Part shown: piece by piece, positions 1 through 62,184 of the stretch
Layout: the number at the start of each line of letters is the position of its first letter
Numbering within the stretch: the first letter of the stretch is position 1
Assembly (NCBI GenBank): GCA_000002445.1
Contig: CP000071.1
Span: 672,001 to 736,000 of the forward strand
Origin: Trypanosoma brucei
Taxonomy: Eukaryota
Reading direction: 5' to 3'
DNA: 64,000 bases
Made by a program: the position numbers and the translations under genes
The notes under the pieces: generated by a model
The model's database searches: none
The model's input: the letters and a program-made list of their open reading frames with translations, nothing else
What the model was told of the DNA's origin: nothing

Positions 1-1
1 A

Positions 2-586
2 GCATCGTATGGACTGCGCGAGTTGCGTCAGCTGTTCTCAATGATCCCACAAGATCCGGTGCTGTTCGATGGGACGGTGGCATCCAACCTCGATCCCTTC
101 AGCCAGGCTACACCAGAAGAGGTGTGGCGCGCACTGGAGTTGGTGGGAATGCGTGGACACGTGGCTGCGGAGAGTGGTGGTATTGAAGCTCGTGTGCAGG
201 AGGGAGGTTTGAACTACAGCGTTGGCCAACGTCAGCTTCTTTGCCTTGCCCGTGCCCTACTGAAGCGTGACAGTGCCTTCATTCTCATGGACGAGGCAAC
301 CGCTAATATTGATCACGCACTTGACAAGCAGATCCAGAACACCGTGAGGACTGCCTTCGCTAACCATACTGTTATAACAATTGCCCACAGACTTCACACT
401 GTGGCGCAGTATGATAAGATCATTGTCATGGATAATGGCGTGGTTGCCGAGTGTGGTGCCCCCCGTGACCTTGCCTTGAGCACCTCTTCGAAGTTCAGGG
501 AGCTGCTCAACTCTCTAGGGACTAATGAAGTGAAAAATTTCATGGCAGTTGTGGAAGGGGCCGCTGCTTCACGTAGCAGCGGGTAG
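2..586 (+). CDS. MRPA: ABCC/MRP-family ABC transporter, C-terminal NBD2 fragment; the 5' end lies outside the window. Probably MRPA (PgpA-like).
   Basis: The frame is open from position 2. The translation shows NBD2 hallmarks: LRQLFSMIPQDPVLFDGTVASNLDP, the ABC signature GLNYSVGQRQLLCLARALL, Walker B ILMDEATANID and the H-loop TVITIAHRLHTV. It lies about 5 kb upstream of PTR1, as in the Leishmania H-region and trypanosome MRPA–PTR1 synteny. The symbol rests on synteny plus family, not on direct identity. Confidence 0.8.
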   Translation, partial: ASYGLRELRQLFSMIPQDPVLFDGTVASNLDPFSQATPEEVWRALELVGMRGHVAAESGGIEARVQEGGLNYSVGQRQLLCLARALLKRDSAFILMDEATANIDHALDKQIQNTVRTAFANHTVITIAHRLHTVAQYDKIIVMDNGVVAECGAPRDLALSTSSKFRELLNSLGTNEVKNFMAVVEGAAASRSSG

Positions 587-14482: not shown

Positions 14483-15904
14483 ATGCGGCGGGCTTCGCAT
14501 GTTTGCACGTCGTGTGAACTGCTGGGTTTCCAGAAGCAATTTCTCATGCTCTCCAACCGCGGTAATAGCAGTGGTGATAATGACGTCATCGATACAAGTG
14601 GCGGCAAGTTCCGCAACGGCAATGGGGATGGAAAAGACGACGATGTTGTGACACCATGGAATGTTTCTGCCACCGGAGTGCGGGGTGTCAACTATGATCG
14701 TGTGTTGGTGCGATTTAAGTCCCAACCTATCGGTGAGCCACTGTTAAAAAGGATGCAGGATGTTTGTGTTGAAAGAGTGAAATGCAATAATAGCGAAAGA
14801 GGACACAATGCGGAAAGGAGTGCAGTGGGTGAAGAGGTGCAGCCATTGCATCACTTCTTCAGGCGTGGCATAGCCTTTTCGCACAGAGATTTTGACATCG
14901 CACTGACCAACGTGCAGGAAGCCTTAAGATCGGGAACTCAGGGAGCGTATTTATACACTGGTCGCGGTCCGAGTACGCGGACAATGCATCTTGGACACGT
15001 GATACCCTTTATGCTTACGCGCTACCTGCAGGATGCGCTCGGGCTGCCGCTAGTCATCCAAATCACCGACGATGAGAAGTTTTTTTTTCGCGATGTACCG
15101 TTGCATGACAACCGATGCTCGGACGGAATTGATATTGTAACCGAAAACATAAAGGATATTATTGCATTTGGCTTTGACCCTAAACGGACGTTTATTTTCC
15201 GGAACACCTCCTACATGGGTAGCATGTATCCTACCGTTGTTCGCCTGCAGCGCACAATGACACTCAGTGCCGTGAAGAATACGCTGGGATTGATCGATAA
15301 TGACAATATCGGGAAAGCCTCCTTCGCTGCTACTCAAGCAGCGCCTTGCTTCAGTAGCTCCTTTCCGTGCATCCTTGGAGAACAAGATTTTGAAAAGCCT
15401 CTACAGTGTATTGTGCCATGTGCCATTGATCAGGATCCGTACTTCGTTCTGGCGCGGGCATCGGCATCCCGCATGAAGTATCGAGCTCCCGCACTACTGC
15501 ATACAAAATTCCTTCCAGCTTTGAAGGGGATGAGACTAAAGATGAGTAGTAGTGCCGAGGAGAGCGGTGTGATAACATTGCACGACTCACCGGAGCAAGT
15601 ACAAAAGAAGATGAAGAAGGCTTTCTCCGGCGGTAGTGGGACACTGGACGACATGAAGACGAAAGGCGTGGATTTGGAGGCCGATGTGGCCTACCAATTC
15701 ATTCGGTTTTTCTCTCCGGACGACGAGATGGTTGGGGAGGTATCGGCAAAGTATGTGGTTGGTGAGATGAACAGCTGTTATGTGAAGAGCTTAGCCGCAG
15801 ATGTTGTCGTCCGGCATGTGCTGCGCAACTGGCAAGCGAAGCGAAAGCTGGTGACAGATGAGGAGGTTCGGCGGTTTACGGAGGTGCGCAACATTATGGC
15901 GTAG
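14483..15904 (+). CDS. Tryptophanyl-tRNA synthetase of the eukaryotic/archaeal type. The N-terminal extension suggests an organellar isoform.
   Basis: Collinear with cytosolic TrpRS: YTGRGPSTRTMHLGHVIPFMLTRYLQDALGLPLVIQITDDEKFF (HIGH motif HLGH), IAFGFDPKRTFIF, IGKASFAATQAAPCFSSSFP and LKMSSS (KMSKS motif). The true start may be an internal Met. Confidence 0.9.
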   Translation: MRRASHVCTSCELLGFQKQFLMLSNRGNSSGDNDVIDTSGGKFRNGNGDGKDDDVVTPWNVSATGVRGVNYDRVLVRFKSQPIGEPLLKRMQDVCVERVKCNNSERGHNAERSAVGEEVQPLHHFFRRGIAFSHRDFDIALTNVQEALRSGTQGAYLYTGRGPSTRTMHLGHVIPFMLTRYLQDALGLPLVIQITDDEKFFFRDVPLHDNRCSDGIDIVTENIKDIIAFGFDPKRTFIFRNTSYMGSMYPTVVRLQRTMTLSAVKNTLGLIDNDNIGKASFAATQAAPCFSSSFPCILGEQDFEKPLQCIVPCAIDQDPYFVLARASASRMKYRAPALLHTKFLPALKGMRLKMSSSAEESGVITLHDSPEQVQKKMKKAFSGGSGTLDDMKTKGVDLEADVAYQFIRFFSPDDEMVGEVSAKYVVGEMNSCYVKSLAADVVVRHVLRNWQAKRKLVTDEEVRRFTEVRNIMA

Positions 15905-16145: not shown

Positions 16146-18689
16146 ATGGACGCGCAAGTTGGAGTTGTTCAGCAACCGGTGACCACTAGTTCAACGATTT
16201 GGGTTGGGGAATGTCAATGTCCAAAATGGAAAAAATCTACCCACCGTGCGGTTGAGCAAAACCTGACGACTTCACTAGAATGCGGTGGAGAAAGAGATGC
16301 ACTCCTTGATGTTGCTTGCGGAAGTGGCATTGACATAGATTCTTTCCTTAGAGAGAAGTGGATTCGTGTAGCATTTACTTCTAGTTTCGGAAGTAACAGT
16401 AGGGTCCGCGTGCGGGCGAGAAGGGTGAGGATAGGTAGCCATGAGTTTGTCGTGGTGGAACGGAACGTTTTTGGGTGTGATGACTCGGTATATCGAAAGG
16501 ATAACAAACTTTGGGAGGGTTTGCCCCGTGGGCAGGCCTGCGTATTTGTCGAATCGGGCGACAGGGCTGGGTTTATACCCATAGGTAGACTTCAAGGCCT
16601 GCGGAAGTTCAATTCCTTCGACGGACCATATGGTATTAGGGGAAGGCAACCCGTTAGTGCTGTTGCGATGGAGGCCATCGACGGGGACTGTGGTCATATC
16701 TCTGCGTTCGTGCACACTGGAGAGCGGTATTGGCTTGTTGGGAACAAAGATACTCACCTATTAGTAAGCTTCAGTGTACCAGAGAAAGATATATTCTCCA
16801 ACACCGCCGAAGGTGGTGCCATAACGAATGAGGGGGACAAGCCACTTCAGGGGGCTAACTATTCACCTCCGTCGCTAGCGGTGCGGATAGCAAGGCTCTG
16901 GGGTCAAACGCTTCGAGCACTTCCCGATGAAAAATCATTCGGTTTGCATGAGTTTTTGTCTTCAAACAGGTACACGGCTTGCTTCGACGCTGTGCTACAG
17001 GACTGTGGACACCTTGTCGACTACGGTGAAGATGAACTTCTACAGTTTTACGCTCTGACCCAAAGTGGTGAATCGCTAGCAGAGGGCTTGTGCGTGGATC
17101 CAGTTAGCGCTATAGTAAACCTGCAGTCCTTTGGTCTTCGTGTAGTCCCCTTCCATAGTGAGCAATGCTCATCAGTACCTGAAATTCTGGATCTTGGAAC
17201 GGACGAGTATTCGCAGTACGGGGGCCAGGTTGCGCGTCGTCTGAACTGCAGAGGAGCGGTTATGTACGGCTTGGACGCCCAGGGCATTGTGGTTCGGTTG
17301 TGGAAGTTACCTTCGCACGCATACGTGGTTGAGCGTGCGGCACAGGAGGCCATTGTGACGCATCGCCTGAGCGGTACCGTCTTGCGCGACAAGTTGCGGA
17401 GGAAGTTAGACCGCTTGCCGAAAGAAATACGACGATGTGTCACTGAATGGAGTTCAGCCCGTCTTGAGCCATTGTTGAACCTTGCAGCGTGGTTGCACAT
17501 TATGGGGAAAGTAACACCGGAGGTTGGCCTCGATGGATTGCAGGAGGTCCGTCGCAGTTGGATAACACTTCAACAGCAACTTGTGAAGCACACAAAGGAC
17601 ATGCGTGAGCACTTACAACTGTACGAGCCCCCAGTGGCCGAGGCAGCTATCAATAACCCGGACGTCATCATGTGTGTGGGGCCACAAGGTTGTGGCAAGT
17701 CCACGTTTTGTCGCGCTTTCTGTGTCTTACTCCAGAAGGTAGGTCAGAAGCCTCGTTGGATCAACCAGGACGAAGTGGGTGGTCGAAATGAGTTTATCGA
17801 GGCCATCCGACGTGCCAAGGAATCCGACTGTACACATATTCTTATAGATAAAATGAATCTTGACGATGCGGCACGAAATGCTGACTACGCCTCTTTCAAC
17901 CTAAAAACGATAACCGTCGCTTGGGTACATCCTTGTGATGTAGACGTTATGGTAAGTACGTGCCTAGAAAGAGTATGCCATCGCGGCAATGCACATCGCA
18001 CATTCAGAGGAACCGTCTCCCCGGGGAAAAAGAGGAAAATGATGACAATTATCCGTGGGTGTGTACAGCGATGCGAACCACCAACAACAGGGATTGTTAT
18101 TGAGGCCAATGTCTTGGACCCCCCGGCCATAACCATAGAATCTGTGTGGAAAGGTCTCTGCCGACACACAATGTCTGAACTTCCAGATATTAAAGATCTT
18201 TCCGTTGCCGACGCGTTGGAAATTGCTCGTAGGTACGAATTACTCTTGTCACACTCATCGCGTCCCTTCAATTGCGGCATCATAAAGGTTGTGAATTCAG
18301 AACTTCTTGTCGCCCTTGTGCCTGCAGATTACCTTGAGGGCAAAAAAATGCGCAAGGAACTCGACATCAGCACAATCTATCTTGGTGACAGATCCCATTT
18401 CGATCTTACGCTTCTGTCAGAGTTACAAACGTTGGAAGGTACTTCCATCCAGGTGGCACCTGTCCGTATCGCGTCCGACGCAAAGGCAACAGCAATTGAA
18501 ATTCGTAACAATAACGAATTCCCATGCCAAAATGCACACCCACACATTACCATTGCTACTGCTCCCGGTGTACCAGCGAAGTATAGCAATGAGCTGCTAA
18601 GCAAAGTAAGCACTGAAACAAGCGACATCAAGGTAATGGAGGTGTCACCTGATGTATCCATTTCAGGTGTGTTTCAGTTTGTGCGGTGA
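16146..18689 (+). CDS. P-loop NTPase, polynucleotide kinase-like, with a conserved C-terminal domain that also occurs in the downstream tandem-array proteins. It may be a CNPase-like or tRNA-ligase-like RNA end-processing enzyme.
   Basis: Walker A VIMCVGPQGCGKSTFCRAF at about aa 515. A Walker B-like THILIDKMNLDD follows. The C-terminal 125 aa (LEGKKMRKEL...LEGTSIQV...NNNEFPCQNAHPHITIATAPG...GVFQFVR) align end to end with the 199-aa array proteins. HPHITI is an H-x-T-x motif, as in 2H phosphoesterases. The start is uncertain and may be an internal Met. Confidence 0.65.
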   Translation: MDAQVGVVQQPVTTSSTIWVGECQCPKWKKSTHRAVEQNLTTSLECGGERDALLDVACGSGIDIDSFLREKWIRVAFTSSFGSNSRVRVRARRVRIGSHEFVVVERNVFGCDDSVYRKDNKLWEGLPRGQACVFVESGDRAGFIPIGRLQGLRKFNSFDGPYGIRGRQPVSAVAMEAIDGDCGHISAFVHTGERYWLVGNKDTHLLVSFSVPEKDIFSNTAEGGAITNEGDKPLQGANYSPPSLAVRIARLWGQTLRALPDEKSFGLHEFLSSNRYTACFDAVLQDCGHLVDYGEDELLQFYALTQSGESLAEGLCVDPVSAIVNLQSFGLRVVPFHSEQCSSVPEILDLGTDEYSQYGGQVARRLNCRGAVMYGLDAQGIVVRLWKLPSHAYVVERAAQEAIVTHRLSGTVLRDKLRRKLDRLPKEIRRCVTEWSSARLEPLLNLAAWLHIMGKVTPEVGLDGLQEVRRSWITLQQQLVKHTKDMREHLQLYEPPVAEAAINNPDVIMCVGPQGCGKSTFCRAFCVLLQKVGQKPRWINQDEVGGRNEFIEAIRRAKESDCTHILIDKMNLDDAARNADYASFNLKTITVAWVHPCDVDVMVSTCLERVCHRGNAHRTFRGTVSPGKKRKMMTIIRGCVQRCEPPTTGIVIEANVLDPPAITIESVWKGLCRHTMSELPDIKDLSVADALEIARRYELLLSHSSRPFNCGIIKVVNSELLVALVPADYLEGKKMRKELDISTIYLGDRSHFDLTLLSELQTLEGTSIQVAPVRIASDAKATAIEIRNNNEFPCQNAHPHITIATAPGVPAKYSNELLSKVSTETSDIKVMEVSPDVSISGVFQFVR

Positions 18690-20158
18690 TGAACACCTCT
18701 TTCTTCATGTTCTTTTCGGTATAACCTACAGAAGTAACGATGAGTACATTAACGGTTGTTGTTTGTTGTGCTCATCGATGAGGCATTAATACCACCCTTT
18801 GTTTTTCCTTTTTTTCTTCTTTGAATCATTAATAAATTTTATCTTGCTTTGTACAAACAATTTTACGTGATTTATTTTGTCCTTAGACGTAGACAATAAT
18901 TTTGATGATAGTGTTTATGTGGACGAATATATTTCTTTGCAATTCACGATTGGATCCAAGTATATTGATGGGAACTTGTGACTTAGGGGAAACGAGTGGT
19001 GTGCTGACATGCTCTCGCAGCACTGATATTCCCCCATAATGCTATGCACTCTGAACTGCATGTGTTGTGTCTGTGTGTATGTGTATACATGGTGTGTCGT
19101 ATGTCCTTTTTGTCTCTATACAACAATAACCTTATACTACGCATCTTGTTACATTCCAACTTTTTCTCTCTAAAAATATACCTAATTTTACAACAAATTA
19201 GGAGGAGGAGGAGTGTGTCTTAACATTGTTTATGTGCCGTATCGTGATGACAGATATTCAGCTGACGCCACACTCATCGGATGTAAGAAGATGTGCCAGT
19301 GATTATACGTAATGTCTTTGCTACAGGTGATTGTACGATATGACCATACCGACTAAACCAACCGAGATCAATGAGGCATGAAATGTTCCCGCCCCGTTTT
19401 CAATTAAGTGACGGTGTGATTACAGACAGGATGTAAGTGAGTCAATGTCAATATCTCCGTATTACACCATGAGGACTATTGTCCCCCGTGTCTGACCGCC
19501 GCTTCCACCTCCTCTCTCCCTTCTTTTCTCCTTTCTTGTTTCTTCTCTTTCACTTACACATGATGTCATTTCGTATTCTGCAATACTGACAATAACTTGA
19601 GCGAGACAAGACATATTTGACTACTGGCAACTGAAACCCGCCACCCTCTCGGATTCTTTGGTCCTCCACTAGTTACTCAACGGTATTTCACTTTAGCTCA
19701 GCGTATATATGAATATAACGTCCACGGAGCTATAAGATGTTCCCATTACCTACCTTTATTGTTATCACGAGGCTCAAAAGAACACACTGAGCGTGTACCA
19801 ATGCCCAGTGAGTGGGACAGCCATCGAAGATAAGTGTTTGTTTTACGGCAATGAGGTTCGAATGCGCCTGACGGTTTTTGTCCGACGTGGTGTGGGAAAC
19901 GCCTCAAAGAAGTTACTGCACCTACACCTTCATTTTCACGGGTATATATTATCCCTGGTCACTAATTGATGTTTGGTATGTTTAATCTGTCACTGAACAC
20001 TACTCACTTGTTTCCCCAGTGTAAGTGTGTCATCTTTCCCGTCTGTGCATTCACATGAATTTTAACTTTTATTACTCATAAATTATGTTTTGCCTCAATT
20101 ATATAGACACCGCTTTATACGCAATTTTAAGCAAGGAAGTCCAACAAGGTGAATTATA

Positions 20159-20758
20159 ATGGGTTGTGGAGGTTCAGCTCCTGCTAACAAAGACAGGCAT
20201 GTGGGTGCAGATCCACCAAAACCTTCAGAGCATTCGGAACATTCAAAACCTTCAGATCCTTCAGATCCTGCTGATGCTACTCGTATTCACAAAATCTGTA
20301 CACTTCCACTACATGACAAGGATAAGCCAGTTGCTGCTGCAGCAATTAGGGTTACCGACCCCAAGTGTATTTCGGATATTTTACCTCCGGAATTCCTTGA
20401 GGGAAAGAAGGTGCATAATGAATTTTGTGCAATTACTCTCTCCTTCGATGATGGAAAGCCGGAGGATGAAGGCCTTTTTGAGAAGTTGAAGGAATTGGAA
20501 GGTACTTCCATCGAATTGAAACCAACCCATATTGTGATGAATGAAAAAGTCGCCGCCATTGGGGTGTGTAATAATGATGAATTCCCCTGCCAGGACGCAC
20601 ACCCGCATATCCTCGTTGCAACTGCTCCAGATGCCACACAGGAGGATATTGATGATGTAACCAAGAAAGGAAAGATTGAGATATTTTGCGCGAGAAAACT
20701 TCCCGATCTGCCACCTGATATCACCATCCCAGGTGAGTTTCGTTTCATGCACTGGTGA
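20159..20758 (+). CDS. Array copy 1: a 199-aa protein with an N-terminal MGCGGS dual-acylation (myristoyl-Gly2, palmitoyl-Cys3) signal. Its C-terminal domain is homologous to the C-terminus of the 847-aa P-loop protein.
   Basis: The protein starts MGCGGSAPANKDRH. The region EFLEGKKVHNEF...LKELEGTSIELKPTHIV...CNNDEFPCQDAHPHILVATAP...IPGEFRFMHW aligns with 16146-18689 aa 720-847. It is identical to copy 3. Confidence 0.75.
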   Translation: MGCGGSAPANKDRHVGADPPKPSEHSEHSKPSDPSDPADATRIHKICTLPLHDKDKPVAAAAIRVTDPKCISDILPPEFLEGKKVHNEFCAITLSFDDGKPEDEGLFEKLKELEGTSIELKPTHIVMNEKVAAIGVCNNDEFPCQDAHPHILVATAPDATQEDIDDVTKKGKIEIFCARKLPDLPPDITIPGEFRFMHW

Positions 20759-21821
20759 GTATTTCCCTGTTCCTTGTGTTTCAATGGTTTCACAAGAGTA
20801 CATATGAATTGTTGTAAGTGTGCTGGCAGTTGCTGTTACTCTGATCGATCAAAGAGTTAGTGGTACTGCGCTTCATTACTTTATTACTTTTGCTATTTTG
20901 TTTTACGAATTTACTTGCCTTTGTCCCTTCTTACTTTCCTTTTGATAACCTTTAGATATTTGCGTGTGGAGGTTTTGGTTTACTGTTATACACATCTGGG
21001 GCTATATTCCCTTCATTTGAATTTTATTATTGCGGTATTGACTTTTTCTTTCAAAGAAGATGATGAACGTTGGAATAACGAATAGGGACGATACGAGGGG
21101 AATGAAGAAAAGGCAGAAAAATGATACGGAGAGGAGGGAAAGACAAAATACAAACAATATGTGGGAGAGATATTTTTGCTTTGCTTTGGTTTGATATCTG
21201 TTTTGTTTGTTTTTTTTTCGTTGTGTTCGATGTTTTTTTGATCTTATTTTCCGAGACTTTATTATACAGGATTTGTTTAACTTATGTACTTTATTACCTA
21301 TTGCTTGTGTGCCATTGTTGTGTTACTATGAAACATTTATTGGTGTGGCAGAGTAAAATGTGTTTTGGCATTGCTTTCCACAAGTAACCGAAGGGCACCA
21401 AATATTTGCTACGGGAGAGCACTGAAATGAAAGGAAACAACTAAACACACTGAGCGTGTACCAATGCCCAGTGAGTGGGACAGCCATCGAAGATAAGTGT
21501 TTGTTTTACGGCAATGAGGTTCGAATGCGCCTGACGGTTTTTGTCCGACGTGGTGTGGGAAACGCCTCAAAGAAGTTACTGCACCTACACCTTCATTTTC
21601 ACGGGTATATATTATCCCTTGTCACTAATTGATGTTTGGTATGTTTAATCTGTCACTGAACACTACTCACTTGTTTCCCCAGTGTAAGTGTGTCATCTTT
21701 CCCGTCTGTGCATTCACATGAATTTTAACTTTTATTACTCATAAATTATGTTTTGCCTCAATTATATAGACACCGCTTTATACGCAATTTTAAGCAAGGA
21801 AGTCCAACAAGGTGAATTATA

Positions 21822-22421
21822 ATGGGTTGTGGAGGTTCAGCTCCTGCTAACAAAAACAGGCATGTGGGTGCAGATCCACCAAAACCTTCAGAGCATTCGG
21901 AACATTCAAAACCTTCAGATCCTTCAGATCCTGCTGATGCTACTCGTATTCACAAAATCTGTACACTTCCACTACATGACAAGGATAAGCCAGTTGCTGC
22001 TGCAGCAATTAGGGTTACCGACCCCAAGTGTATTTCGGATATTTTACCTCCGGAATTCCTTGAGGGAAAGAAGGTGCATAATGAATTTTGTGCAATTACT
22101 CTCTCCTTCGATGATGGAAAGCCGGAGGATGAAGGCCTTTTTGAGAAGTTGAAGGAATTGGAAGGTACTTCCATCGAATTGAAACCAACCCATATTGTGA
22201 TGAATGAAAAAGTCGCCGCCATTGGGGTGTGTAACAATGATGAATTCCCCTGCCAGGACGCACACCCGCATATCCTCGTTGCAACTGCTCCAGATGCCAC
22301 ACAGGAGGATATTGATGATGTAACCAAGAAAGGAAAGATTAAGATATTTTGCGCGAGAAAACTTCCCGATCTGCCACCTGATATCACTATCCCAGGTGAG
22401 TTTCGTTTCATGCACTGGTGA
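21822..22421 (+). CDS. Array copy 2: a 199-aa MGCGGS protein. It differs from copies 1 and 3 by D11N and E176K.
   Basis: Same unit, offset by 1663 bp. The substitutions are ANKNRH versus ANKDRH and GKIKIF versus GKIEIF. There is also a synonymous aac/aat change and one spacer SNP. Confidence 0.75.
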   Translation: MGCGGSAPANKNRHVGADPPKPSEHSEHSKPSDPSDPADATRIHKICTLPLHDKDKPVAAAAIRVTDPKCISDILPPEFLEGKKVHNEFCAITLSFDDGKPEDEGLFEKLKELEGTSIELKPTHIVMNEKVAAIGVCNNDEFPCQDAHPHILVATAPDATQEDIDDVTKKGKIKIFCARKLPDLPPDITIPGEFRFMHW

Positions 22422-23484
22422 GTATTTCCCTGTTCCTTGTGTTTCAATGGTTTCACAAGAGTACATATGAATTGTTGTAGGTGTGCTGGCAGTTGCTGTT
22501 ACTCTGATCGATCAAAGAGTTAGTGGTACTGCGCTTCATTACTTTATTACTTTTGCTATTTTGTTTTACGAATTTACTTGCCTTTGTCCCTTCTTACTTT
22601 CCTTTTGATAACCTTTAGATATTTGCGTGTGGAGGTTTTGGTTTACTGTTATACACATCTGGGGCTATATTCCCTTCATTTGAATTTTATTATTGCGGTA
22701 TTGACTTTTTCTTTCAAAGAAGATGATGAACGTTGGAATAACGAATAGGGACGATACGAGGGGAATGAAGAAAAGGCAGAAAAATGATACGGAGGGGAGG
22801 GAAAGACAAAATACAAACAATATGTGGGAGAGATATTTTTGCTTTGCTTTGGTTTGATATCTGTTTTGTTTGTTTTTTTTTCGTTGTGTTCGATGTTTTT
22901 TTGATCTTATTTTCCGAGACTTTATTATACAGGATTTGTTTAACTTATGTACTTTATTACCTATTGCTTGTGTGCCATTGTTGTGTTACTATGAAACATT
23001 TATTGGTGTGGCAGAATAAAATGTGTTTTGGCATTGCTTTCCACAAGTAACCGAAGGGCACCAAATATTTGCTACGGGAGAGCACTGAAATGAAAGGAAA
23101 CAACTAAACACACTGAGCGTGTACCAATGCCCAGTGAGTGGGACAGCCATCGAAGATAAGTGTTTGTTTTACGGCAATGAGGTTCGAATGCGCCTGACGG
23201 TTTTTGTCCGACGTGGTGTGGGAAACGCCTCAAAGAAGTTACTGCACCTACACCTTCATTTTCACGGGTATATATTATCCCTGGTCACTAATTGATGTTT
23301 GGTATGTTTAATCTGTCACTGAACACTACTCACTTGTTTCCCCAGTGTAAGTGTGTCATCTTTCCCGTCTGTGCATTCACATGAATTTTAACTTTTATTA
23401 CTCATAAATTATGTTTTGCCTCAATTATATAGACACCGCTTTATACGCAATTTTAAGCAAGGAAGTCCAACAAGGTGAATTATA

Positions 23485-24084
23485 ATGGGTTGTGGAGGTT
23501 CAGCTCCTGCTAACAAAGACAGGCATGTGGGTGCAGATCCACCAAAACCTTCAGAGCATTCGGAACATTCAAAACCTTCAGATCCTTCAGATCCTGCTGA
23601 TGCTACTCGTATTCACAAAATCTGTACACTTCCACTACATGACAAGGATAAGCCAGTTGCTGCTGCAGCAATTAGGGTTACCGACCCCAAGTGTATTTCG
23701 GATATTTTACCTCCGGAATTCCTTGAGGGAAAGAAGGTGCATAATGAATTTTGTGCAATTACTCTCTCCTTCGATGATGGAAAGCCGGAGGATGAAGGCC
23801 TTTTTGAGAAGTTGAAGGAATTGGAAGGTACTTCCATCGAATTGAAACCAACCCATATTGTGATGAATGAAAAAGTCGCCGCCATTGGGGTGTGTAATAA
23901 TGATGAATTCCCCTGCCAGGACGCACACCCGCATATCCTCGTTGCAACTGCTCCAGATGCCACACAGGAGGATATTGATGATGTAACCAAGAAAGGAAAG
24001 ATTGAGATATTTTGCGCGAGAAAACTTCCCGATCTGCCACCTGATATCACCATCCCAGGTGAGTTTCGTTTCATGCACTGGTGA
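23485..24084 (+). CDS. Array copy 3: a 199-aa MGCGGS protein, identical to copy 1.
   Basis: Same unit, offset by 3326 bp from copy 1. Confidence 0.75.
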   Translation: MGCGGSAPANKDRHVGADPPKPSEHSEHSKPSDPSDPADATRIHKICTLPLHDKDKPVAAAAIRVTDPKCISDILPPEFLEGKKVHNEFCAITLSFDDGKPEDEGLFEKLKELEGTSIELKPTHIVMNEKVAAIGVCNNDEFPCQDAHPHILVATAPDATQEDIDDVTKKGKIEIFCARKLPDLPPDITIPGEFRFMHW

Positions 24085-25134
24085 GTATTTCCCTGTTCCT
24101 TGTGTTTCAATGGTTTCACAAGAGTACATATGAATTGTTGTAAGTGTGCTGGCAGTTGCTGTTACTCTGATCGATCAAAGAGTTAGTGGTACTGCGCTTC
24201 ATTACTTTATTACTTTTGCTATTTTGTTTTACGAATTTACTTGCCTTTGTCCCTTCTTACTTTCCTTTTGATAACCTTTAGATATTTGCGTGTGGAGGTT
24301 TTGGTTTACTGTTATCCACATCTGGGGCTATATTCCCTTCATTTGAATTTTATTATTGCGGTATTGACTTTTTCTTTCAAAGAAGATGATGAACGTTGGA
24401 ATAACGAATAGGGACGATACGAGGGGAATGAAGAAAAGGCAGAAAAATGATACGGAGAGGAGGGAAAGACAAAATACAAACAATATGTGGGAGAGATATT
24501 TTTGCTTTGCTTTGGTTTGATATCTGTTTTGTTTGTTTTTTTTTCGTTGTGTTCGATGTTTTTTTGATCTTATTTTCCGAGACTTTATTATACAGGATTT
24601 GTTTAACTTATGTACTTTATTACCTATTGCTTGTGTGCCATTGTTGTGTTACTATGAAACATTTATTGGTGTGGCAGAATAAAATGTGTTTTGGCATTGC
24701 TTTCCACAAGTAACCGAAGGGCACCAAATATTTGCTATGGGATAGCAATTTAAATGCAGGGAAGGTGAAGGAGGGCAATAATTGGACAATGTAATTTTTT
24801 TTTACTGTTATGTGTTCGATTTGGGTAGGAAAATGTGATTGTGGGAGCTTGTCCTGGGGTGATGGAGGTATTTTTCATTTTTTTGTGATGGTAATGATTT
24901 TTTTTTTTTTGGTCGGCCCTTTGTGTCAACTAGCATCTTCTTTGGAGTAGGTGCATATGTGCGTGCAGCTGCTTTTTAGTGAGCACCTCGTGTTTTAAGT
25001 GTCTTTTTTTATTATACCTTTTTGCTATTACCTTCTTGTTTTTTGCTTTTGAAACGTTTTTGATAATACACTAAAAGAGTAGACAGAAAACAGTAGTTGG
25101 TATATAGAAGAACTTATTAGTCGCTTCTCGAGTT

Positions 25135-27548: not shown

Positions 27549-27878
27549 ATGCCTCCCAAGTATGACAATGTCCAGCGGCTCCTCGATGCTGAAAGAAGGC
27601 GGAATGAAGTTATTGCCAATGCGAAAGCTCAGAAGCAGGCGAAGGTGAAGCAGGCTAAAGTTGATGCCGAACGCGAAGTTGCTGCTTTCCACGCGGAGAA
27701 GGAACGCGAATATGAAGCATACCGCCAGCAGCAGGAGGCACTTACCGAGAAAGAAAAGGAACAATTGCGATCTGATACGGATGTCTGGTTACAACAGCTC
27801 AACGCCATGGCGGCCAATCGCATGCAGGCGGTTGAAACTATGATGACTGGTTTGATACTGCGATGTCAGGACAACTGA
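27549..27878 (+). CDS. V-type proton ATPase subunit G.
   Basis: A 109-aa protein. The N-terminal pattern VQRLLDAERRRNEVIANAKAQKQAKVKQAKVDAEREVAAFHAEKEREYE matches the V-ATPase G / Vma10 consensus (QxLLxAEKxAxxxVxxARKxKxxRLKQAKxEAxxEIxxYR). Its size is right for this subunit. Confidence 0.6.
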   Translation: MPPKYDNVQRLLDAERRRNEVIANAKAQKQAKVKQAKVDAEREVAAFHAEKEREYEAYRQQQEALTEKEKEQLRSDTDVWLQQLNAMAANRMQAVETMMTGLILRCQDN

Positions 27879-61251: not shown

Positions 61252-62184
61252 ATGGGACAACACAGCGCCAAGGAGTTCAGGGGATCAAGACGAGGCGAAA
61301 GCAATAGTGGCGTTTTCCCCCTGGGGCCAGGTCATGCACATGTCGGTATGGGTTCAACGAAAAAACCACTGGGCATACATACATCGGCTGTACAGAACAA
61401 TGTCCTTCGACAGCGTAACCAACATCGGAGGGTTATGCATGAGGAAGGTGGTTCCCATCCCCGTGGACAGGAGGCAGACGGTTCCCATGGCGAGGATATT
61501 GCTGAAGAGAAGTTTCCTGTAGTGATTCGCTATGCAGCTCATGATGTTCGTTCACTTCTGTCCAGTAATGAAAAAGTTTACGTCGCAGTAGAATCACTTA
61601 ATTGGAGCAAGTTGCCCATGACTGCTAGCGAAGATTCATTTTATGCAATTGTAGAGCTTCCGCAAGGCCCACAACGGTTTCGCTTCGTTGTGGGTGAGAC
61701 GGAAGTAGTGGATACAGCACAACCCATCGAGGATATTGCGGAAGGTACACCACTGCTTGAACCGCGTGGTGACGTCGGGCACAAGGGGGAAACTCGGGCG
61801 AATGTCATACACGTTAACAAGGCGCTGCTTCTAACCAAAGAAGATGAAGAGGTGCCTGATGATGGCAGTGGATGGGGACAAGAGGAGATTATTCATAAGG
61901 AAGATCGTAAGCACCCACCCATTATGCCAGTACATTTACGTTACACACCGGTTAATACACCACTAACTGCCGCTCGATGTGCACTTGACGGTTTCATGCG
62001 CACCACTGACGAAGATACCGTGTCCCCCGAAAATCTCCCTATTCCGCTCAGTGTCACTGTTAATCACGTGTATTTTCAGCGCCGTGAGGACCACTGTGTT
62101 ACGGCCATGACGACCCGTTTTTGCAACAAGTATTCAACGATGGTATATTATTCAAAGGCGGAACCCACGGCATCCCTCCAATAA
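61252..62184 (+). CDS. AMPK/SNF1 kinase beta-subunit-like protein, with a CBM/KIS domain, a C-terminal association domain and an N-terminal myristoylation signal.
   Basis: It starts MGQHSAKEF, with Gly2 as in myristoylated AMPK beta. The carbohydrate-binding-module core is PVVIRYAAHDVRSLLSSNEKVYVAVESLNWSKLPMTASEDSFYAIVELPQGPQRFRFVVGETEVVD (compare the AMPK beta pattern WSKLPLTRS..F.AI.DLPEG.HQYKF.VDG). A conserved C-terminal segment reads HVYFQRREDHCVTAMTTRFCNKYSTMVYY. Confidence 0.65.
   Translation: MGQHSAKEFRGSRRGESNSGVFPLGPGHAHVGMGSTKKPLGIHTSAVQNNVLRQRNQHRRVMHEEGGSHPRGQEADGSHGEDIAEEKFPVVIRYAAHDVRSLLSSNEKVYVAVESLNWSKLPMTASEDSFYAIVELPQGPQRFRFVVGETEVVDTAQPIEDIAEGTPLLEPRGDVGHKGETRANVIHVNKALLLTKEDEEVPDDGSGWGQEEIIHKEDRKHPPIMPVHLRYTPVNTPLTAARCALDGFMRTTDEDTVSPENLPIPLSVTVNHVYFQRREDHCVTAMTTRFCNKYSTMVYYSKAEPTASLQ

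What the first reader, a model, noticed from the sequence alone, without database searches (positions are those of the whole stretch)
20159..20200. The array proteins begin MGCGGS, a canonical Gly2 myristoylation plus Cys3 palmitoylation signal.
The N-terminus is MGCGGSAPANK. Myristoylation requires Gly2 and favours Ser/Thr or a small residue at position 6. The adjacent Cys gives the dual-acylation pattern that kinetoplastids use to send small proteins to the flagellar or pellicular membrane, as in calflagins and small calpain-related proteins. No TM helix is present, so the lipid anchor would be the only membrane determinant.
Basis: partly seen in the sequence, partly recalled or inferred. 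Interest (0 to 1): 0.5.

Follow-up and report, generated by a model that had tools for sequence, protein, structure and literature searches.

The report
Lipid-anchor signal on trypanosome POMP39 proteins
Three tandem Trypanosoma brucei genes (POMP39-2, -3 and -4) do begin with a textbook myristoyl-plus-palmitoyl membrane-anchor signal, but it was already listed as a high-confidence prediction in 2007; what it anchors is a probably inactive copy of an RNA-repair enzyme domain.

Summary
Three tandem 199-aa ORFs (20159, 21822 and 23485, + strand, 1663-bp unit) all start MGCGGSAPANK. An in-frame stop lies 3 codons upstream and there is no TM helix.

The genes are T. brucei chr 8 Tb927.8.2260/2270/2280, named POMP39-2/-3/-4. 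Mills et al. 2007 (Table S2) already list these N-termini as high-confidence N-myristoylation predictions (Myristoylator about 0.986). The hexapeptide MGCGGS is also the N-terminus of CAP5.5. I could not read direct lipid-labelling data.

Localisation evidence is mixed:
- The gene name records detection in the mitochondrial outer-membrane proteome.
- TrypTag places the paralogue POMP39-1 in the flagellar pocket 'ring'.

New here:
- Both HxT motifs are degenerate (C-A-I, H-I-L), so this is probably a pseudoenzyme.
- The MGC leader occurs only in the T. brucei group. The T. congolense and T. grayi relatives lack it.

Verdict: real, supported, already known; modest interest.

The parts
20159..20758 (+). 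POMP39-2 (Tb927.8.2260), 199 aa, array copy 1
   Evidence: ORF. Identical to TREU927 XP_847059/61 (P0005). Gene ID and name from the PMC10998879 supplement.
21822..22421 (+). POMP39-3 (Tb927.8.2270, assigned by order), 199 aa, array copy 2 (D12N, E174K)
   Evidence: Identical to XP_847060 (P0008). Its N-terminus KNRH matches Tb08.26A17.50 in Mills 2007 Table S2.
23485..24084 (+). POMP39-4 (Tb927.8.2280), 199 aa, array copy 3
   Evidence: Name from the PMC7861527 supplement.
19779..24735 (+). Extent of the tandem array (about 2.98 units of 1663 bp), including shared 5' flanks and 3' UTRs
   Evidence: Sliding identity between copies.
20159..20176 (+). MGCGGS dual-acylation motif, copy 1 (also at 21822-21839 and 23485-23502)
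   Evidence: Myristoylator 0.986.
20177..20320 (+). Disordered Pro/Asp/Ser/His-rich linker, residues 7-54, containing a 9-bp microrepeat (20220-20269)
   Evidence: AF2 pLDDT below 50 for residues 1-34 and 38-53. TRF period 9, 5.6 copies. Composition.
20321..20755 (+). 2H phosphoesterase (CNPase / Trl1-CPD-like) domain, residues 55-199
20426..20437 (+). Degenerate 2H motif 1: C90-A-I-T93, where relatives have H-[IV]-T-T
   Evidence: Alignment A1. Lies on model strand E90-97.
20606..20617 (+). Degenerate 2H motif 2: H150-I-L-V, where relatives have H-I-T-[IV]
   Evidence: Alignment A1. Lies on model strand E150-155.
16146..18689 (+). Tb927.8.2250, an 847-aa Trl1-like protein (DUF7920 + P-loop kinase + CPD). 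Its C-terminal domain (residues about 688-846, nt 18207-18683) is the paralogue of the POMP39 domain.
   Evidence: Pfam, BLASTP, gene ID. It is not the characterised 870-aa TbTrl1.

Best explanation
The three ORFs are the T. brucei genes POMP39-2, -3 and -4. They encode abundant small proteins built from three parts:
- an SH4-type N-terminus, MGCGGS;
- a disordered linker of about 50 residues rich in Pro, Asp, Ser and His;
- a C-terminal 2H phosphoesterase domain that arose by duplication of the CPD domain of the adjacent Trl1-like gene Tb927.8.2250.

Inferred mechanism: methionine aminopeptidase exposes Gly2, and N-myristoyltransferase adds myristate co-translationally. The weakly membrane-bound protein then meets a DHHC palmitoyl-transferase that acylates Cys3. 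This locks the protein on the cytoplasmic face of a membrane, with the folded domain held on a flexible tether.

Both catalytic HxT motifs are lost: His to Cys and Thr to Ile in motif 1, and Thr to Leu in motif 2. The tethered domain is therefore most likely a non-catalytic binding or scaffold module rather than an active cyclic phosphodiesterase.

Shown here: sequence, array structure, motif match, fold, paralogy, loss of motifs, gene identity, and the published prediction, abundance and localisation records. Inferred: actual acylation, which membrane the protein sits on, and lack of catalysis.
For: - The motif and start codon are verified.
- Mills 2007 Table S2 lists Tb08.26A17.40/.50/.60 and Tb08.26N11.570 with exactly these N-termini at Myristoylator 0.9856-0.9864. 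CAP5.5 appears there as MGCGGSKVKP.
- In that dataset more than 70% of high-confidence kinetoplastid substrates have Ser6.
- MCA4 gives an experimental T. brucei precedent for a dual-acylated pseudoenzyme whose G2A mutant turns cytosolic.
- MGCGGS is shared by all POMP39 copies and, after an extra initial Met in the TREU927 model, by the 42-47% identical paralogue Tb927.8.2080. The first 17 nt of the CDS are identical between the two, while codons 7-16 diverge with indels.
- There is no TM segment.
- The motifs are degenerate in POMP39, whereas motif 2 is intact in every other relative aligned and motif 1 in all but Tb927.8.2250 itself.
- The protein is membrane-associated in published data: the name POMP39, the TrypTag flagellar-pocket ring for POMP39-1 and a DeepLoc 'Cell_membrane' call.
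- It is abundant: 84% coverage and intensity about 1e9.
Against: - I could not read any lipid-labelling, acyl-biotin-exchange or G2A/C3A data for POMP39.
- Localisation records disagree: mitochondrial outer-membrane proteome, flagellar pocket ring, and a curated GO term 'axoneme'.
- TrypTag was done in procyclic forms, whereas POMP39-1 is described as bloodstream-form specific.
- PS00008 by itself is unspecific.
- The identity of the first six codons between paralogues could be the tail of the roughly 350-bp near-identical upstream tract, that is gene conversion rather than selection on the motif.
- Loss of catalysis is inferred from the motifs only. His150 is retained.
Confidence: 0.75

Rival explanations
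1. The protein is myristoylated only, or the Cys3 acylation is transient. It would then bind membranes weakly and reversibly and distribute over several endomembranes, including the mitochondrial outer membrane, rather than being locked at the flagellar or pellicular membrane.
For: The localisation records are inconsistent: the OMM proteome name, the flagellar pocket ring and 'axoneme'. Mills 2007 show that the dual-acylated full-length LmPPEF is endocytic although its N-terminal peptide sends GFP to the flagellum, so other regions matter.
Against: In established SH4-motif biology, a Cys directly after a myristoyl-Gly is the classic palmitoylation context. CAP5.5 carries the same hexapeptide. 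No data seen here argue against palmitoylation.
Confidence: 0.15
2. The tethered 2H domain is still an enzyme, for example a 2',3'-cyclic nucleotide or RNA>p phosphodiesterase using Cys90/His150. POMP39 would then be a membrane-anchored CNPase analogue with catalytic function.
Against: Both Thr residues of the HxT motifs and one His are replaced. The family-wide KYSNELL motif is also lost in POMP39 only. In characterised 2H enzymes both His residues are needed (established knowledge).
Confidence: 0.1
3. The MGC start is not the true N-terminus, because translation starts elsewhere or the leader is cleaved. The motif would then be irrelevant.
For: Upstream ATGs exist at 20055 and 20085 if trans-splicing uses a distal AG. 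TREU927 annotates the sibling as MMGCGGS.
Against: There is an in-frame TGA 3 codons upstream. The uATGs are out of frame and give short uORFs. The next in-frame Met is M126, inside the fold. The leader is conserved in five genes and several subspecies. The T. b. equiperdum sibling starts MGCGGS directly.
Confidence: 0.03

Closest known systems
T. brucei POMP39-1..4 (Tb927.8.2070/2260/2270/2280), as annotated in TriTrypDB-derived tables and listed in the predicted N-myristoylome of Mills et al. 2007
   Same: This is the same thing. The window ORFs are identical to XP_847059-61. The N-termini are listed verbatim with Myristoylator scores of about 0.986.
   Different: Nothing differs in sequence. 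The databases seen here call the genes hypothetical or POMP39 without a domain assignment, and Pfam CPD is sub-threshold.
CAP5.5 and small calpain-related proteins; calflagins (T. brucei dual-acylated proteins)
   Same: CAP5.5 and a calpain-like fragment share the identical MGCGGS hexapeptide, and the calflagins start MGCS[AG]S. All are small or N-terminally anchored cytoplasmic-face proteins without TM helices.
   Different: The cargo domain is unrelated: calpain-like or EF-hand there, a 2H phosphoesterase fold here. No homology exists beyond the leader.
T. brucei metacaspase 4 (MCA4)
   Same: MCA4 is a catalytically dead enzyme homologue, expressed mainly in bloodstream forms and held on a membrane by N-terminal myristoylation plus palmitoylation. 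Its G2A mutant becomes cytosolic. It is in the same Mills 2007 list (MGGCVS).
   Different: It has a different fold and a different motif layout (Cys at position 4). MCA4 acylation is shown experimentally; POMP39 acylation is not, in what I could read.
Vertebrate CNPase (2',3'-cyclic nucleotide 3'-phosphodiesterase) and the CPD domain of fungal/plant-type tRNA ligase Trl1
   Different: CNPase and Trl1 keep two HxT motifs and are active; POMP39 has C-A-I and H-I-L. From my own knowledge, CNPase is anchored by C-terminal prenylation, not N-terminal acylation. There is no detectable PDB sequence similarity.
Tb927.8.2080 and the short stand-alone CPD paralogues of T. congolense (CCC92007) and T. 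grayi (XP_009314179)
   Same: These are also small proteins consisting of a leader plus a CPD-like domain, encoded near or derived from the Trl1-like gene. Tb927.8.2080 shares the MGCGGS leader, the linker and the 5' flank.
   Different: They retain both HxT motifs and KYSNELL. The T. congolense (MCLKNAGK) and T. grayi (MPPKGS, with an in-frame stop upstream) proteins have no Gly2.

Membership tests
N-myristoyltransferase substrates | Initiator Met followed by Gly2, with no alternative upstream in-frame start | tested here: met
   ATG GGT at 20159. In-frame TGA at 20150-52.
N-myristoyltransferase substrates | Residue 3 not charged, aromatic or Pro; residue 6 small (Ser/Thr preferred); residue 7 not Pro (PROSITE PS00008) | tested here: met
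   G-C-G-G-S-A matches the regex. Ser6 occurs in more than 70% of kinetoplastid high-confidence substrates.
N-myristoyltransferase substrates | High score from a trained predictor over the extended N-terminal region | tested here: met
   No predictor was run here. Published Myristoylator scores for these exact N-termini are 0.9857-0.9864 (Mills 2007 Table S2).
N-myristoyltransferase substrates | Incorporation of myristate or an analogue, sensitive to NMT inhibition | not testable with these tools
   The T. brucei chemical-proteomic study (PMC4906374) is not held.
SH4-type dual acylation (myristoyl-Gly2 plus palmitoyl-Cys) | Cys within the first few residues next to the myristoylated Gly | tested here: met
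   Cys3 is present in all three copies and in all paralogues.
SH4-type dual acylation (myristoyl-Gly2 plus palmitoyl-Cys) | Thioester-linked palmitate on that Cys (ABE or 17-ODYA), lost in C3A | not testable with these tools
   The palmitoylome paper (PMC3067466) is not held. The gene IDs were not found in the lipid-raft proteome supplement.
SH4-type dual acylation (myristoyl-Gly2 plus palmitoyl-Cys) | No other membrane determinant (TM helix, signal peptide) | tested here: met
   Maximum KD(19) is 0.81. The N-terminal 53 residues are hydrophilic and disordered.
2H phosphoesterase superfamily (CNPase / Trl1 CPD clade) | Two-lobed alpha+beta 2H fold | tested here: met
2H phosphoesterase superfamily (CNPase / Trl1 CPD clade) | Two H-x-T/S catalytic motifs on the central strands | tested here: not met
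   Motif 1 is C90-A-I and motif 2 is H150-I-L. Ten of the 13 aligned sequences have H-[IV]-T in both motifs; the exceptions are the two POMP39 sequences and, for motif 1 only, Tb927.8.2250.
2H phosphoesterase superfamily (CNPase / Trl1 CPD clade) | Significant match to Pfam PF08302 tRNA_lig_CPD | tested here: not met
   E 0.061 and 13.2 bits against a cut-off of 23. The siblings pass at 41-46 bits. Homology is instead shown by BLASTP, E 7e-30, to the neighbour's CPD.
POMP39 gene family of T. brucei | Sequence identity and genomic position (chr 8, downstream of Tb927.8.2240 TrpRS and Tb927.8.2250) | tested here: met
   Exact matches to XP_847059-61. Names and IDs from two supplements. The neighbours TrpRS and the Trl1-like gene are in the window.
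Calflagins / small calpain-related proteins | EF-hand or calpain-like cargo domain | tested here: not met
   No such Pfam hit. The fold is 2H.

The most novel reading that the evidence does not exclude
POMP39 would be a recently evolved, Trypanozoon-specific, highly abundant lipid-tethered pseudo-CNPase. In this reading a dead 2H domain, copied from an RNA-repair-like enzyme and fused to a dual-acylation leader, works at the flagellar-pocket or mitochondrial outer-membrane surface as a binder or sequestering scaffold for 2',3'-cyclic-phosphate RNA ends or nucleotides. Its still-motif-bearing sibling Tb927.8.2080 would supply membrane-localised CPD activity, possibly compensating for the His-to-Asp change in motif 1 of Tb927.8.2250.
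Probability: 0.12. Interest if true: 0.55.

Novelty: already known. Interest (0 to 1): 0.2.

Why it matters
NMT is a validated drug target in T. brucei, so its abundant substrates are of practical interest. POMP39 is among the more abundant proteins in its neighbourhood in the proteomic table I could read. The signal itself has been on record since 2007, so the finding adds nothing new on acylation.

The modest added value is the domain assignment. A lineage-specific, lipid-anchored and probably inactive CNPase/CPD-like module, born by partial duplication of the adjacent Trl1-like gene, gives a concrete hypothesis for an otherwise 'hypothetical' abundant protein. It is also a clean case of new-gene origin by domain capture plus a targeting leader.

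Tried and rejected
- Profile search of PDB sequences with the family alignment gave no meaningful hit. The fold had to be established from the AF2 model instead.
- The look-up of encoding contigs gave nothing for P0002 and P0004. I used the T. b. equiperdum locus L004 instead.
- Several papers were not held: Wright 2016 (myristoylome), Niemann 2013 (OMM proteome), Emmer 2011 (palmitoylome) and Emmer 2009. Experimental acylation status and the original OMM evidence therefore could not be checked.
- The lipid-raft proteome supplement has no occurrence of the five gene IDs.
- A full-text search for 'MGCGGS' gave 0 papers, and searches by gene ID gave almost nothing.
- I first took the 847-aa neighbour for TbTrl1 and rejected that. 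The characterised TbTrl1 is 870 aa, with GxGKT at 400-404 and HVTV at 739 and 802.
- I considered that the T. b. equiperdum name 'Proteasome maturation protein 39A' reflected function and rejected it as a mis-expansion of POMP.
- I considered that conservation of the first six codons proves selection on the motif, and downgraded this. The codons abut a roughly 350-bp near-identical upstream tract.

Full report
**Observation**

The stretch 20159-20200 reads ATG GGT TGT GGA GGT TCA GCT CCT GCT AAC AAA GAC AGG CAT, which translates to MGCGGSAPANKDRH. It opens a 199-aa ORF (20159-20758).

Two further copies lie at 21822-22421 and 23485-24084. The first 30 nt occur exactly three times in the window, against none in 100 shuffles.

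The repeat unit is 1663 bp. Near-identity extends from about 19779 to about 24735, which is 2.98 units including the 5' flank and the long 3' UTR. Copy 2 differs by D12N and E174K.

An in-frame TGA sits three codons upstream of the ATG. The upstream ATGs at 20055 and 20085 are out of frame and give short uORFs. AG dinucleotides at 20105-20147 follow a T-rich tract and are plausible trans-splice acceptors. The next in-frame Met is M126.

The N-terminus fits PROSITE PS00008. The most hydrophobic 19-residue window scores only 0.81 on the Kyte-Doolittle scale, so there is no TM helix.

PS00008 alone is weak evidence. Five of the 69 ORFs of at least 100 aa in the window match it at the N-terminus; three are the array copies and one is AMPK beta, and of the six ORFs that start MG two are not annotated genes.

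**What the genes are**

The proteins are identical to T. brucei TREU927 XP_847059, XP_847060 and XP_847061 on chromosome 8. They cluster with XP_847040 and with T. b. gambiense, T. equiperdum and T. b. equiperdum entries.

Two proteomic supplements give the names:
- Tb927.8.2250 is the 847-aa upstream gene.
- Tb927.8.2280 is POMP39-4.
- Tb927.8.2070 is POMP39-1.

The T. b. equiperdum name 'Proteasome maturation protein 39A' is evidently a mis-expansion of POMP.

**Prior knowledge of the signal**

Mills et al. 2007 (PMC1885993) screened the TriTryp genomes with a relaxed PROSITE pattern followed by Myristoylator. They list 62 high-confidence T. brucei substrates. Their Table S2 contains these entries:

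| Entry | N-terminus | Score |
|---|---|---|
| Tb08.26A17.40 and .60 | MGCGGSAPAN KDRHVGADPP | 0.98640 |
| Tb08.26A17.50 | MGCGGSAPAN KNRHVGADPP | 0.98570 |
| Tb08.26N11.570 | MGCGGSAPAN KDKHVGADPP | 0.98559 |

These are the three array copies, including the D12N variant, plus POMP39-1. The same table shows MGCGGS on CAP5.5 (MGCGGSKVKP), on a calpain-like fragment and on Tb11.02.0010, and MGCS[AG]S on the calflagins.

MCA4 is in the same table (MGGCVS). It has been shown to be palmitoylated by acyl-biotin exchange and to become cytosolic as a G2A mutant. It is a close functional precedent: a bloodstream-enriched pseudoenzyme held on a membrane by dual acylation.

I could not read the experimental T. 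brucei myristoylome (PMC4906374), the palmitoylome (PMC3067466) or the OMM proteome paper (PMC3567870), because none is held. Whether POMP39 acylation has been demonstrated remains open in this report.

**Where it goes**

The records disagree.
- The gene name implies co-fractionation with the mitochondrial outer membrane in procyclic forms.
- The TrypTag source data for Fig. 5i list Tb927.8.2070 in the 'ring' sub-compartment of the flagellar pocket, alongside SMP1-2.
- A compiled table gives DeepLoc 'Cell_membrane', curated GO component 'axoneme' and no TrypTag entry for Tb927.8.2260.
- POMP39-1 is treated as a bloodstream-form-specific protein. It is abundant, with 84.4% coverage, 14 peptides and intensities of about 1e9, against about 5e7 for its neighbours.
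- Mills et al. also caution that dual acylation is not sufficient to predict the destination. The LmPPEF N-terminal peptide sends GFP to the flagellum, yet the full-length protein is endocytic.

Membrane association on a cytoplasmic leaflet is well supported. 'Flagellar or pellicular' is only partly supported.

**What the anchor carries**

Pfam gives only a sub-threshold hit to tRNA_lig_CPD (E 0.061). However, residues 38-197 align with residues 688-846 of the gene immediately upstream at 36% identity, E 7e-30.

That upstream gene has DUF7920, a P-loop kinase and a CPD domain. It is a Trl1-like protein, but it is not the characterised TbTrl1, which is 870 aa with different motif positions.

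An exhaustive HMMER scan of 1.8 billion representatives found only 12 relatives. Every one that I traced to a source is from Trypanosoma or Leishmania. They are either the long Trl1-like proteins or short stand-alone versions.

**Catalytic motifs**

In the alignment, most relatives carry H-[IV]-T-T and H-I-T-[IV] on the two central strands, plus a KYSNELL motif. This holds for long and short forms from T. congolense, T. vivax, T. theileri, T. grayi, T. cruzi and Leishmania.

POMP39 has C90-A-I-T93 and H150-I-L-V instead, and it lacks KYSNELL. One catalytic His and both Thr residues are gone, so canonical 2H chemistry is unlikely. This is an inference and no assay was done.

The sibling Tb927.8.2080 keeps both motifs behind the same MGCGGS leader.

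**Origin of the leader**

The T. b. equiperdum locus L004 shows POMP39-1 directly upstream of the Tb927.8.2080 orthologue.

I compared POMP39 with that Tb927.8.2080 orthologue:
- The 350 bp upstream of the ATG are 92-100% identical.
- The first 17 nt of the CDS are identical.
- Codons 7-16 diverge with indels.
- The linker is 80-90% identical.
- The domain is only 50-66% identical.

The leader and 5' flank are thus shared by descent or gene conversion. This pattern is compatible with selection on MGCGGS but does not prove it.

The short paralogues of T. congolense (MCLKNAGK) and T. grayi (MPPKGS, with an in-frame stop 8 codons upstream) have no Gly2. The acylation leader therefore appears to be an innovation of the T. 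brucei group.

**Verdict**

However, it is a known, published prediction on named genes, so novelty is 'already known' and interest is low.

The incremental points are:
- the assignment of POMP39 as a degenerate CNPase/CPD-like domain duplicated from its neighbour;
- the lineage restriction of the leader;
- the conflict between the OMM name and the flagellar-pocket tagging result.

The decisive experiments are standard: lipid-probe labelling, G2A and C3S mutants in bloodstream forms, and enzymology of the domain.

Noticed in passing
window 61252-62184 (+): A 310-aa ORF starting MGQHSAKEFR is the AMPK beta subunit (Pfam AMPKBI 6.9e-18 plus AMPK1_CBM). It is a second predicted N-myristoylated protein in the window, listed in Mills 2007 Table S2 as Tb08.26A17.310 with score 0.9446. 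It has no Cys near Gly2.
   Followed up: partly
window 18363-18374 (residues D740-I-S-T743 of the 847-aa gene at 16146-18689): The Trl1-like protein Tb927.8.2250 has Asp in place of the first catalytic His of its own CPD domain. Its orthologues in T. congolense, T. vivax, T. theileri, T. cruzi and Leishmania, and the short paralogue Tb927.8.2080, all have H-[IV]-T-T. Motif 2 (H800-I-T-I, nt 18543-18554) is intact. The CPD of the long T. brucei protein may be impaired.
   Followed up: partly
window 18400-18686 compared with P0002/P0010; also T. congolense CCC92006 compared with CCC92007: The C-terminal residues (about 95) of the short paralogue Tb927.8.2080 are nearly identical to the C-terminus of Tb927.8.2250. 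The same holds within T. congolense. This indicates concerted evolution or gene conversion between the long gene and its short paralogue in each species.
   Followed up: partly
window 16146-18689 (+): Tb927.8.2250 has a Trl1-type domain order (DUF7920, E 2.9e-112; P-loop kinase; CPD) but is not the characterised TbTrl1 (870 aa, Lopes 2016). A compiled table gives it TrypTag 'endocytic, cytoplasm(weak)' and curated GO 'DNA repair'. Its function appears uncharacterised.
   Followed up: partly
window 20220-20269, 21883-21932, 23546-23595: A 9-bp microrepeat (AACCTTCAG, 5.6 copies, 78% matches) encodes the PSEHSEHSKPSDPSDP part of the disordered linker. A T. b. equiperdum copy (P0009) has one repeat fewer and a frameshifted C-terminus.
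   Followed up: no
window 20085-20159 (and the same position in each array copy): A 24-codon upstream ORF ends in a TAA that overlaps the main start codon (TAATG). It would only matter if trans-splicing uses an AG upstream of 20085.
   Followed up: no
NCBI RHW71046.1 (T. b. equiperdum): The orthologue is annotated 'Proteasome maturation protein 39A'. [quoted passage not shown]
   Followed up: yes
window 14483-15904 (+) and 27549-27878 (+): The flanking genes are a class I Trp/Tyr-type tRNA synthetase (PF00579, 4.5e-19; from memory the mitochondrial TrpRS2, Tb927.8.2240) and a 109-aa ORF. By position after Tb927.8.2280 in the supplement and by its sequence, read from my own knowledge, the latter is probably the V-ATPase G subunit Tb927.8.2310; no family search was run on it.
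   Followed up: no
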